From NCBI RefSeq assembly GCF_022846255.1, contig NZ_AP025682.1: a stretch of 64,000 bases of DNA; one strand, 5' to 3'. This document shows, one piece after another, positions 42,001 to 45,000 of the stretch. Position 1 is the first letter of the stretch. Every line of letters starts with the position of its first letter. The position numbers were made by a program. The DNA comes from Escherichia coli. GTDB taxonomy: Bacteria > Pseudomonadota > Gammaproteobacteria > Enterobacterales > Enterobacteriaceae.

Positions 42001-45000
42001 ATGGCTTTAGTATATTCATCAGGAATACCAATTGTAAAACAAGGTGCGGTATCGGTAGGTAGATTTTCTTTGTTGTCATCATCCAGAACAGAAATAGAAA
42101 ACTGTCGTTCAGGTGTTGATGTCGTGGTTATTAAAATGGTTGGATTAGGAAGAGAAACATATGTTGTCTCATTTTTAGTTTTATTTCTTTGATGTTTTCT
42201 TTGTTAATTTTATCAATCGTTTCAATAGAAAAAAAAGAATCATACCCCATTCGCAGTTCAATTTTATTATCGTTTTCGAATAAATAAATGGCATTATTGT
42301 TTTGAAACAGATTGAATATATTGTTAGCGCAAGTTTGAGTTGCTAGCCAGGATGCCGCTGGATGACTCAAATTAATATGTGTGCTAAAGACTTTGACGCG
42401 ACTACTTCTGTTTTTCTCTTTACTTTCAATTAAATGCCTAGCGCTGTTGGCTGCTTTACAAGTTCCATGCCCCACACGGCAAAAATAATCTCCTGAAAGG
42501 ATACTTACAATCAGTATTACACCAATGACGACAGAAAAAATAGTTCCGATGAGTTTGATGATGACAATCCTTGTGCAGTGTTATTTTCACCATGGATTAT
42601 AATGTTATAGTGAAATTATTGCGCATGTAATTTTTCTCTGATTGTTTTAACATCACATTTATGCACTTCTTCATCTTTGTAGCAGGTAAAAGCCATATAT
42701 GGATGGCTGGTGTCCGGTGCAGATAAAATGCAACTTATTCTTGATAGCTTGAAAAAAAGAGAGGTTTTTTTGAGTGACGGTTGATAGTCGGTGGCAAGGA
42801 AGACGTTTTCGTACACTCGGCAAGAAAAACGAATCACTCTGTCATACTACCAGATACATCAGCAGGGTCAGGTTGCTCAGAAATAAGCAGGATGGGGATC
42901 ACTGAAGAGGCATTTTGGCGATCACAGGAGTCGCATTTGATGGTTAATTTATTGATTTAATGTTTATATTTTGAATTTGATAAATGAGTAACCCCATAAG
43001 TACCCCCAAATGGTTTTGCGTATGGCGTTTGGGGGGATTCCGGGCTACTTTTTCGACTCTTTATTCCACTGTAGCAAACCAGCGATATCCTTCTCGCCTT
43101 CGGCTTCTTTTAAGCGCCGTTGTTGTTCGGCAAACTGAACATACTCCGCCTGCGCTTTTTCATCGGCCATTTTCTTGCTGATTTTACCAGCGCCCTGTAG
43201 AACCTCTCGGTCGTTAAATTGCAGGAACTGATCCAGCTTATCCTGCCAGTCGCGCAAAAAGACTTGCTGACGACGACGGGCCTGATCCTCGGCAAAGTCC
43301 AGCCACATATTAACCACGCGATTAAGTTCGCTGACCTCATCCTGGGTGAGATAATTTTTTGCCACCGTCACGTCGCCCTTACGTACCTCTTCACCTTTAT
43401 AACTGGTCAAGCCCATGTGCGGCTGGCTGGCATCTGCTCGTTTGTGGATGAGTTCCGCAGCGGTATGCCCGGTACAGGCAAAATGCAGTTTATTCTGGAT
43501 GGTTTGAAAAAATTGCGTGGTTTCTTTAAGCGATGGCTGATAGTCGGCAGCTAAAGCAAAGATCTCCCGCACCCGCAAATATACCCGACGCTCGCTGGCG
43601 CGAATATCGCGGATGCGTTCAAGCATCTCATCAAAATAGTCGGGCACAACCGATGAACCGACAGGCGGATTCTTCAGCCGCTCATCGTCCATCACAAAAC
43701 CTTTGATCAAGTATTCCTGAAGCGTCTGGGTGGCCCACTGGCGGAATTGCGTGCCTCGAGGCGAGCGAACGCGATAGCCGACAGCGAGAATGGCTTCGAG
43801 GTTGTAATGGTCTATCTCTCTGGAAACCTGACGTTTTCCTTCCTGGCGAACTATCCGGAATTTCCGGATGGTTGAGTTTTGAACAAGTTCACCTTCGGAA
43901 AATATATTGATTAAATGTTCGTTAATAGTGCGAACATCTTTATCGTACAGTTCAGCCATTGCCGCCTGAGATAACCAGATTGTGTCTGACTCAAAGCGAC
44001 ATTCAACACGCACTCTTCCGTCACCGCTGGCAAACATAATAAACTCGCCTGCTGGGGGCTGGGTTAAGTCTTTGTCTGACATGTCGCCTCCGAAGGAGTG
44101 TTGTTGACGTCGGGAGAGTTCAGTAGAGGCATTTTGGCGGAAGATCACAGGAGTTGAACCTGCCCGGGACCGCTGGCGGCCCCAACTGGATTTGAAGTCC
44201 AGCCGCCTCACCGGAGACGACGATCTTCCGCGCCTCGATTGCTACATGGAGGCGGGGCGCATTATAGCTACTTCCTTGAGTTTCTACATCCCCCAGATCA
44301 GTTTTTTCCGCCTAATACACGCAGCGTATTATCACGAAAACATTATAGTTCATATAAAACTCATATTTTACAATGATATATGAGCGAAATTAACGCTACC
44401 ACGATCACATAAAACAAGAATCATAAATTAATAACCAGATATCGGAATATTCGCTCTCGCAGGGATGGTTTACAAAATGCGTTATCGGTCTCAGCACCCC
44501 TATAGCATCAAGGAAAAGCAGATGAAGAGTGAAGTGTTGTCCGTTAAAGAGAAAATTGGTTATGGCATGGGAGACGCCGCCAGCCACATTATTTTCGATA
44601 ACGTAATGTTATATATGATGTTCTTTTATACCGATATTTTTGGCATTCCTGCCGGATTTGTCGGAACCATGTTTTTGGTCGCTCGTGCACTGGATGCGAT
44701 TTCCGATCCTTGCATGGGGTTGTTGGCCGATCGAACGCGCTCTCGCTGGGGTAAATTTCGTCCGTGGGTACTGTTTGGCGCACTGCCATTCGGGATCGTC
44801 TGTGTACTGGCCTATAGCACGCCAGATCTCAGTATGAACGGAAAAATGATTTATGCAGCAATTACTTACACTCTACTTACCTTACTTTATACCATCGTCA
44901 ATATCCCTTACTGCGCATTGGGTGGTGTAATCACCAATGACCCGACTCAGCGTATCTCGCTGCAATCCTGGCGTTTTGTGCTGGCGACCGCGGGAGGCAT

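What the first reader, a model, noticed from the sequence alone, without database searches (positions are those of the whole stretch)
42906..44154. Second, degenerate copy of the selC 3-prime end 1.2 kb downstream, bracketing the RhuM gene like an att repeat
The 26 nt at 42906..42931 (agaggcattttggcgatcacaggagt) repeat the selC 3-prime terminus plus 10 nt of its flank at 44125..44154, differing only by a 4 nt gap. Direct repeats of a tRNA 3-prime end are the signature of site-specific island integration. The RhuM gene lies exactly between the two copies, and beyond the second copy sits a truncated RhuM fragment, which suggests two successive insertions or a tandem duplication of a selC::rhuM module followed by decay of the older copy.
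Basis: seen in the sequence. Interest (0 to 1): 0.65.

Follow-up and report, generated by a model that had tools for sequence, protein, structure and literature searches.

The report
selC island junction repeat, rhuM remnant
The second copy of the selC tRNA end is real: it is the known far-end junction repeat of genomic islands inserted at selC in E. coli, here enclosing a 1.2 kb integrase-less island remnant whose only gene is rhuM, so the finding is ordinary.

Summary
Window 42906-42931 repeats 44125-44154 (the last 20 nt of selC plus 10 nt of flank) exactly, apart from a 4-nt gap. No other place in the 64 kb comes close.

Comparison shows an attR-type island junction. The same junction, with the same gap and flank, is in 1106 of 5426 complete E. 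coli genomes. In 536, CFT073 and Nissle 1917 it closes large selC islands; Nissle's has integrase pseudogenes beside selC. It contains 14 nt of the published 16-bp repeat TTCGACTCCTGTGATC.

The 1.2 kb between the copies is a stripped island:
- a 34-nt left-end stub;
- intact rhuM (PF13310, PADLOC candidate PDC-S05, dN/dS 0.07-0.15);
- a 110-nt right end with the published TTTGGGGG…GGGG motif.

Fuller relatives exist. E69 has the same module with about 450 nt more. EC2641 has an 8.8 kb island, integrase to DUF4942 to rhuM, ending in the same gapped repeat on a K-12-type backbone.

The rhuM fragment beyond the repeat is about 79% identical and belongs to an older remnant. Successive insertions are supported and tandem duplication is not.

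The kind is already known and interest is low. One loose end: the gap is one allele of a recurrent 0/1/3/4-nt deletion series.

The parts
44135..44229 (-). selC (tRNA-Sec), the integration target; it carries a T-loop change found in no other genome searched (44155, tRNA G57 to A57)
   Evidence: ARAGORN. Comparison with K-12, Q5, Nissle, EC2641 and E. whittamii. No 100% match among 5426 genomes.
44125..44154 (.). attL-side copy of the repeat: the last 20 nt of selC plus the first 10 nt of the island left end
44101..44134 (-). 34-nt stub of the island left end (P' arm)
   Evidence: Window 44101-44154 is 100% identical over 54 nt to the upstream att copy plus left end in E69. The stub is near-identical to the selC-proximal flank of the Nissle island and to the EDL933 internal junction.
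44083..44100 (-). rhuM ribosome-binding region and the inferred internal deletion junction (about 44093-44100)
   Evidence: In E69 about 450 nt separate the left end from the rhuM leader: more left end plus a short remnant that I read by eye as the end of a DUF4942 gene. These are absent here.
43045..44082 (-). intact rhuM, 345 aa, the only gene between the repeats
   Evidence: ORF. Pfam PF13310, E 5.7e-118. PADLOC PDC-S05, E 2.8e-173. dN/dS 0.07-0.15 against the E69 and EC2641 alleles.
42934..43044 (-). island right end (P arm), including the motif TTTGGGGGTACTTATGGGG at 42992-43010
   Evidence: Homologous to the right ends of the Nissle, 536, CFT073, EC2641 and E69 islands. Motif found once in the window and published as a secondary repeat of selC islands (PMC6174562).
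42906..42933 (.). attR-type copy of the selC 3' end with the 4-nt gap, followed on the low-coordinate side by 10 nt of older flank
42832..42915 (-). older selC-downstream flank, itself a decayed island left end
   Evidence: By eye in the side-by-side listing of flanks it starts with the same 12 nt after GCCA (AAATGCCTCTTC) as the selC flanks of E. whittamii and Nissle, and resembles them loosely beyond that. No separate alignment of the older flank was run.
42649..42831 (-). older rhuM fragment (residues 166-238, frameshifted, with an internal deletion)
   Evidence: tblastn with RhuM. 79% nt identity to the intact gene over 81 nt.
41979..42476 (-). AT-rich hypothetical gene between yicL and the older fragment, probably the rest of the older insert; frameshifted in this window
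   Evidence: GC 0.30-0.36. Annotated as a 498-nt CDS in Q5, Nissle and CFT073. 1-nt deletion near 42171.

Best explanation
The element at 42906-42933 is the distal (attR-type) junction left by site-specific integration of a genomic island into the 3' end of selC. Shown: the repeat, its conservation, and its position at the boundary of islands in other strains. Inferred from how P4-type tyrosine integrases work at tRNA genes: the incoming island supplied a new selC 3' end plus its own left end (now 44101-44154). It pushed the old 3' end and the old downstream flank to the far side (now 42906-42933 and leftwards). The island was of the type integrase ... CbtA/YeeU ... DUF4942 - rhuM - right end, as in EC2641. 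Internal deletion then removed everything between 34 nt of the left end and the rhuM leader. What remains is a 1.2 kb, integrase-less, att-flanked remnant. Its single gene, rhuM, is intact and under purifying selection. The flank beyond the repeat is the remnant of an earlier rhuM-carrying element of the same family. That is why the repeat runs 10 nt past the tRNA end and why a second, diverged rhuM fragment follows. The remnant is most likely immobile: the window has no integrase and the left arm is truncated. Recombination between the two copies on the T-loop side would join selC to the 4-nt-deleted 3' end.
For: - Repeat exact and far above chance.
- The junction plus older flank is present in 1106 of 5426 complete E. 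coli genomes, and the full window structure in 843.
- In Nissle 1917 the order is selC, left end, integrase pseudogenes, about 30 kb, DUF4942, right end, the same gapped repeat, the older rhuM fragment, yicL. 536 and CFT073 show the same distal end.
- In a 4-strain alignment everything up to the end of the repeat is invariant, and divergence starts at the next base.
- 536 carries the published 16-bp repeat TTCGACTCCTGTGATC, and the window has 14 of its 16 nt. The published secondary repeat TTTGGGGGT..GGGG is at 42992-43010.
- EC2641 has an 8.8 kb island with integrase next to selC and DUF4942-rhuM-right end next to the same gapped repeat, on a K-12-type backbone. It is 82% identical to window 42906-44092.
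- E69 has the same module at 97.3% identity, with the left end and rhuM separated by about 450 nt more. Window 44101-44154 is 100% identical to the E69 upstream att copy plus left end.
- No integrase or DUF4942 homologue is found anywhere in the window.
- rhuM dN/dS is 0.07-0.15.
Against: - No recombination was observed; all of this is comparative inference.
- No genome shows the 'empty' state, with the older flank joined directly to intact selC (0 of 5426). The order of events is therefore reconstructed, not seen.
- The rhuM module has ordinary GC (0.45-0.54).
- selC followed by a short spacer and rhuM is also the arrangement in E. whittamii and in the older E69 module. An alternative history therefore cannot be excluded: rhuM as an old resident next to selC, later picked up by composite islands.
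- The origin of the 4-nt gap (carried by the island, carried by the backbone, or arising anew) is unresolved.
Confidence: 0.85

Rival explanations
1. Tandem duplication of a selC-rhuM segment in situ, followed by decay of the distal copy.
For: Same order and orientation in both units: tRNA end, short spacer, rhuM.
Against: The rhuM sequences are only 79% identical over the 81 nt that align, while the att repeat is exact. The spacings differ: 755-756 for rhuM against 1219-1223 for the repeat. The right-end arm exists only in the proximal unit. Each unit occurs without the other in other genomes: Nissle, 536 and CFT073 have only the older one, and EC2641 has the newer type on another backbone. 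The two intact rhuM alleles compared (window, EC2641) already differ by dS 0.69, so such divergence is typical of separately acquired alleles.
Confidence: 0.04
2. The 1.2 kb unit is a still-mobilisable integrase-less mini-island (like a cis-mobilisable element) that moves when a related integrase acts in trans or when a neighbouring island excises together with it.
For: It is flanked by both att copies and keeps the right arm with its motif. In EC2641 a rhuM plus right end unit sits at the end of an integrase-bearing island on a different backbone, as expected if composites move as one piece.
Against: The left arm is cut to 34 nt and lacks the GGGGG-type motif seen in full left ends. The window has no integrase. 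The window-type rhuM allele is found in 844 genomes against 843 with this same complete arrangement, so it is essentially confined to this context; that fits vertical inheritance and gives no sign of movement.
Confidence: 0.08
3. The match is chance, or conserved yicL-upstream sequence unrelated to selC.
For: The copy is conserved upstream of yicL in 1106 genomes.
Against: The alignment score is far above shuffles. The copy is absent from K-12-type genomes with the same yicL. It sits exactly at the boundary between invariant backbone and variable island DNA. The same gapped copy occurs next to different flanks in EC2641 and in a Pseudocitrobacter assembly.
Confidence: 0.01

Closest known systems
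PAI I536 and related selC-associated islands of E. coli (Tia-PAI, AGI-3/EPI-I, GIselC17584/1, SHI-2), flanked by the repeat TTCGACTCCTGTGATC
   Same: Same locus. The distal junction of 536 is identical to the window from the backbone through GATCACAGGAGTCG, including the 4-nt gap. The published 16-bp (24 bp in another paper) repeat and the secondary TTTGGGGG motif are both present (PMC6174562; PMC7545054).
   Different: Here only 1.2 kb lies between the repeats, with no integrase and no virulence cargo. The left arm is reduced to 34 nt.
The 8.8 kb selC island of E. coli EC2641 and the multi-module selC region of E. coli E69
   Same: Same right end, same rhuM position next to attR, and the same att core (82% and 97% nt identity to window 42906-44092).
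   Different: EC2641 keeps the integrase, CbtA and DUF4942 and sits on a K-12-type backbone. E69 keeps about 450 nt more of the interior, and its attR lacks 1 nt rather than 4.
Cis-mobilisable elements (CIMEs) and the accretion model for integrative elements (Streptococcus thermophilus ICESt1/ICESt3 work; from my own knowledge, not checked here)
   Same: An att-flanked, integrase-less remnant lying in tandem with other remnants at one tRNA site.
   Different: No evidence of mobilisation here. The proteobacterial island family is unrelated.
SPI-3 of Salmonella enterica at selC, which carries rhuM in its variable selC-proximal part
   Same: A rhuM-family gene in a selC-associated island (PMC3680342).
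   Different: No sequence comparison with SPI-3 was done here, and SPI-3 carries mgtCB and other cargo.
K-12-type selC region (selC, rhuM pseudogene, setC, yicL)
   Same: selC is followed by the same AAATGCCTCT flank and a rhuM fragment (residues 121-187). About 3300 further genomes carry this fragment.
   Different: K-12 has no second selC copy, no intact rhuM, and setC in place of the AT-rich gene.

Membership tests
tRNA-gene-associated genomic island bounded by direct repeats of the tRNA 3' end | Intact tRNA gene at one end | tested here: met
   tRNA-Sec at 44135-44229
tRNA-gene-associated genomic island bounded by direct repeats of the tRNA 3' end | Direct repeat of the tRNA 3' end at the other end, same orientation | tested here: met
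   26-28 nt with a 4-nt gap, well above chance
tRNA-gene-associated genomic island bounded by direct repeats of the tRNA 3' end | Tyrosine integrase gene inside the element, next to the tRNA | tested here: not met
   Only rhuM lies between the repeats, and the window has no integrase homologue. The feature is met in relatives: Nissle (pseudogenes) and EC2641. The window element is therefore filed as a remnant, not an intact island.
tRNA-gene-associated genomic island bounded by direct repeats of the tRNA 3' end | Presence/absence or content differences between strains, with the break exactly at the repeat | tested here: met
   Alignment A1 is invariant up to the repeat end and divergent after it. 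Different islands sit between the same junctions.
tRNA-gene-associated genomic island bounded by direct repeats of the tRNA 3' end | Excision and integration by site-specific recombination at the repeats | not testable with these tools
   Indirect only. Strain 536-21, which lost PAI I, is selC-negative (PMC6385356), which fits a join to the gapped copy.
In situ tandem duplication | Two units collinear with the same spacing, and divergence no greater than that of the flanking repeat | tested here: not met
   79% identity against exact; spacing 755 against 1219-1223
RhuM family (Pfam PF13310) / PADLOC candidate defence system PDC-S05 | Full-length match to the family profile | tested here: met
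   PF13310 residues 70-323, E 5.7e-118. PDC-S05 residues 1-343 of a 346-position profile, E 2.8e-173. Anti-phage activity was not tested.
Cis-mobilisable element (integrase-less, att-flanked, mobilised with a neighbour) | Both att sites complete enough to be recombined by a cognate integrase | tested here: inconclusive
   The right arm and motif are present. The left arm is cut to 34 nt and lacks the motif. The arm sites this integrase needs are not known.

The most novel reading that the evidence does not exclude
The 4-nt gap may not be random decay. In the 13 displaced or internal copies listed, from 11 genomes, the copy differs from selC only inside TTCC of GATC[TTCC]GCCA. It lacks 0 nt in ETEC1738, ECCRA-119 and the E69 upstream copy. 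It lacks 1 nt in EDL933 and E69, 3 nt in BL21(DE3), and 4 nt in the B2 strains, EC2641 and a Pseudocitrobacter assembly. The same K-12-type flank carries the 0, 3 and 4 states, and near-identical right arms carry 0 and 4, so at least three independent events are needed. One reading is that TTCC lies in the integrase's strand-exchange region, and that the microdeletions either arise there or are kept because they block precise excision. Any loss of the island then leaves a crippled selC, as in the selC-negative 536-21. That would be a lock-in of the island at the expense of the cell's only tRNA-Sec.
Probability: 0.25. Interest if true: 0.5.

Novelty: already known. Interest (0 to 1): 0.2.

Why it matters
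The finding fixes the boundaries of foreign DNA at one of the best-known island insertion sites of E. coli. It also shows that even 'island-free' B2 strains carry two stacked island remnants at selC. In practice the repeat at 42906-42933 is the correct right-hand landmark when annotating selC islands in B2 genomes. Two points may deserve follow-up. First, rhuM, a candidate anti-phage or toxin gene, is the only gene kept intact through the decay and is under purifying selection. Second, deletion between the repeats would join selC to a 3' end that lacks 4 nt.

Tried and rejected
- Empty-site test: a chimeric query joined the older flank directly to selC. No genome covers it (0 of 5426), so the pre-insertion state could not be shown.
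- Genome-contig scan for the core with a 0-4 nt gap gave only 4 loci. These were useful (E69, E. whittamii, Pseudocitrobacter, Leclercia) but too few for a species survey.
- Viral-contig scan gave one hit at a contig end, which was uninformative.
- NCBIfam gave no hit for RhuM or for the AT-rich hypothetical protein.
- Promoter and terminator scans of 42500-44500 were at background level, so nothing can be said about rhuM transcription.
- ARAGORN on a simulated post-excision selC still calls a tRNA-SeC, so that in silico test of inactivation is inconclusive. By hand the acceptor stem drops from 8 to 5 pairs.
- Chouikha 2006 (PMC1347334) and Blum 1994 (PMC186147) are not held. The 16-bp repeat is therefore cited through PMC6174562.
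- I first considered that the gap is carried by the island's attP, with crossover in GCCAA, because EC2641 has it on a K-12 flank. I dropped this as a sole explanation: the same right arm occurs with different gap sizes in E69 and the window, and in ECCRA-119 and 536.
- A first literature search for rhuM matched 'rheum...' words and was useless.

Full report
**Setting.** The window is E. coli chromosome. The gene order is nepI, yicS, nlpA, yicL (40878-41855, minus), about 2.3 kb of variable DNA, selC (44135-44229, minus), yicJ, yicI. The best match over 41700-44400 is strain Q5 at 99.4%.

**The observation.** The + strand reads AGAGGCATTTTGGCG-ATCACAGGAGT at 42906-42931 and AGAGGCATTTTGGCGGAAGATCACAGGAGT at 44125-44154.
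- The repeat finder reports the two halves as exact direct repeats with spacings 1219 and 1223, which makes one repeat with a 4-nt gap.
- The gapped alignment scores 21.5. The next best place scores 14, and the maximum over 30 whole-window shuffles is 14.
- Against canonical selC the copy matches 2 nt further (CG at 42932-42933). This window's selC has T instead of C at 44155.

**What the copy is.** The 251 nt around it (42690-42940) occur in 1106 of 5426 complete E. coli genomes. The named examples include the type strain, UTI89, CFT073, 536, Nissle 1917 and ST131.
- In Nissle 1917 the order is: selC, about 300 nt of left end, two integrase pseudogenes, about 30 kb, a DUF4942 gene, about 130 nt of right end, the same gapped copy, the same rhuM fragment, an AT-rich hypothetical gene, yicL.
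- 536 and CFT073 have the same distal arrangement. The 536 island is PAI I536 at selC.
- In an alignment of the four strains every base up to the end of the copy (…GGAGTCG) is invariant. Divergence begins at the next base, and the following 85-90 nt are related but variable. That is the behaviour of an island/backbone junction.
- In 536 the junction reads TTCGACTCCTGTGATC, the 16-bp direct repeat reported for selC islands. The reported secondary repeat TTTGGGGGT…GGGGGT has its counterpart at window 42992-43010.

**What lies between the copies.** Reading from selC there are 34 nt (44101-44134) that match the selC-proximal flank of the Nissle island and the EDL933 internal junction, with one or two mismatches. 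They are 100% identical to E. coli E69. Next come about 18 nt of rhuM leader, then intact rhuM (43045-44082), then 110 nt of right end.

Two genomes show what this was before it shrank.
- EC2641 has a K-12-type backbone: yicL, setC::IS30 and the K-12 rhuM pseudogene. It then carries the same gapped copy, right end, an intact rhuM, DUF4942, CbtA, further genes, a tyrosine integrase with an Arm-DNA-binding ORF, and selC. The island is 8.8 kb, and window 42906-44092 aligns to it at 82%.
- E69 has the window's own module at 97.3% identity from the copy to the rhuM ribosome-binding site. There the left end (longer, with the GGGTGCATTAGGGGGTG motif) and rhuM are about 450 nt further apart. I read part of that extra sequence by eye as the end of a DUF4942 gene.

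The window module is therefore an island of the type integrase … DUF4942 - rhuM with the interior deleted, the junction lying at about 44093-44100. The window-type rhuM allele is found in 844 genomes and the complete arrangement in 843. This looks like one inherited state, not a moving unit. No integrase or DUF4942 homologue exists anywhere in the window.

**What lies beyond the copy.** The flank to the left of the copy starts with the same AAATGCCTCT (tRNA orientation) that follows selC itself in K-12, Nissle, E. whittamii, Leclercia and the window. By eye it resembles those left ends loosely for some tens of nt.
- About 74 nt further on comes a rhuM fragment covering residues 166-238, with frameshifts and an internal deletion. 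It is 79% identical to the intact gene over the 81 nt that align.
- The older E69 module and E. whittamii show the less decayed form: tRNA end, a 125-nt spacer, then the start of rhuM (MSDK…).
- K-12-type genomes have the same kind of remnant directly next to selC (residues 121-187) and no second selC copy.

The 'chromosomal' flank is thus an older island left end with an older rhuM. This explains why the repeat runs past the tRNA end. It also supports successive insertions rather than duplication.

**Tandem duplication is rejected.** The rhuM spacing (755-756) differs from the repeat spacing. The divergence (79%) is of the order seen between separately acquired alleles: window against EC2641 is 83% nt identical with dS 0.69. 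Only the proximal unit has a right arm. Each unit also occurs without the other in other genomes.

**How it works.**
- Shown: the anatomy and its distribution.
- Inferred from the established behaviour of P4-type tyrosine integrases at tRNA genes: the island's attP carries a copy of the tRNA 3' end. Recombination within the shared segment leaves the tRNA rebuilt from island sequence at attL, and the displaced original 3' end at attR.
- The remnant here has lost the integrase and most of the left arm, so it is most likely fixed in place.
- If the two copies recombine on the T-loop side (the 12-14 nt block), selC would be joined to a 3' end lacking TTCC. ARAGORN still calls that product, so the computation is inconclusive. 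The acceptor stem drops to 5 of 8 pairs by hand. The 536 derivative that lost PAI I is reported as selC-negative with reduced anaerobic fitness (PMC6385356).

**rhuM.** It matches PF13310 and the PADLOC candidate system PDC-S05 over its full length. It has been proposed as a toxin domain in restriction-modification/PrrC neighbourhoods (PMC3710099). dN/dS of 0.07-0.15 between alleles shows that the gene is maintained. It gives its name to a gene of Salmonella SPI-3, also at selC (PMC3680342). Its function was not tested.

**The loose end.** In the 13 displaced or internal copies listed, from 11 genomes, the only differences from selC within the core lie in TTCC:

| nt missing from TTCC | Copies |
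|---|---|
| 0 | ETEC1738, ECCRA-119, E69 upstream copy |
| 1 | EDL933, E69 |
| 3 | BL21(DE3) |
| 4 | window, Nissle, 536, CFT073, EC2641, a Pseudocitrobacter assembly |

The K-12-type flank carries three of the states. Near-identical right arms (ECCRA-119 and 536) carry two. Neither 'carried by the island' nor 'carried by the backbone' alone explains the pattern, so several independent events are needed. Whether this marks the strand-exchange region or a selected block to excision is open.

**Verdict.** The kind of feature, and this very junction sequence, are long known, so interest is low.

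Noticed in passing
window 44155 (selC T-loop): This window's selC has TTCAACT instead of TTCGACT in the T-loop (tRNA position 57, G to A). K-12, Q5, Nissle, EC2641 and E. whittamii all have G. No complete E. coli genome of 5426 matches 44101-44240 at 100% (best 99.3%). It is either a change unique to this strain or a sequencing error. Position 57 is normally a purine, so it is probably harmless.
   Followed up: partly
window 41979-42476, minus strand (near 42171): The AT-rich hypothetical gene between yicL and the old rhuM fragment is a 498-nt CDS in Q5, Nissle and CFT073. 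Here it has a 1-nt deletion in a T run that cuts the ORF to 114 aa. It has no NCBIfam or PADLOC match.
   Followed up: partly
displaced selC copies in L002, L005-L014: There is an allelic series of 0, 1, 3 or 4 nt missing, always within TTCC of GATC[TTCC]GCCA, on several backbones and with several island right arms. The changes are recurrent and confined to one spot.
   Followed up: partly
L013 4400-4760 (uncultured Pseudocitrobacter assembly): The same right arm type, the same 4-nt-gapped copy, a left-end-like flank and a rhuM fragment (…LAVGYRIRSPHGTQFRQ) occur in another genus. The island family and its rhuM association are therefore not limited to Escherichia.
   Followed up: no
E. coli genomes in general: About 3300 further genomes carry the K-12-type 75-nt rhuM pseudogene piece next to selC. 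A query of selC plus the 34-nt left-end stub finds 6112 places in 5424 genomes, so roughly 690 genomes hold a second such junction (tandem islands, as in E69 and EDL933).
   Followed up: no
L004 19037-21021 (Nissle 1917): Two successive 828-nt integrase pseudogene fragments lie next to selC, and there is a duplicated JAB-DUF987-YeeU-CbtA-DUF4942 block inside the island. This suggests that the Nissle selC island is itself two islands in tandem.
   Followed up: no
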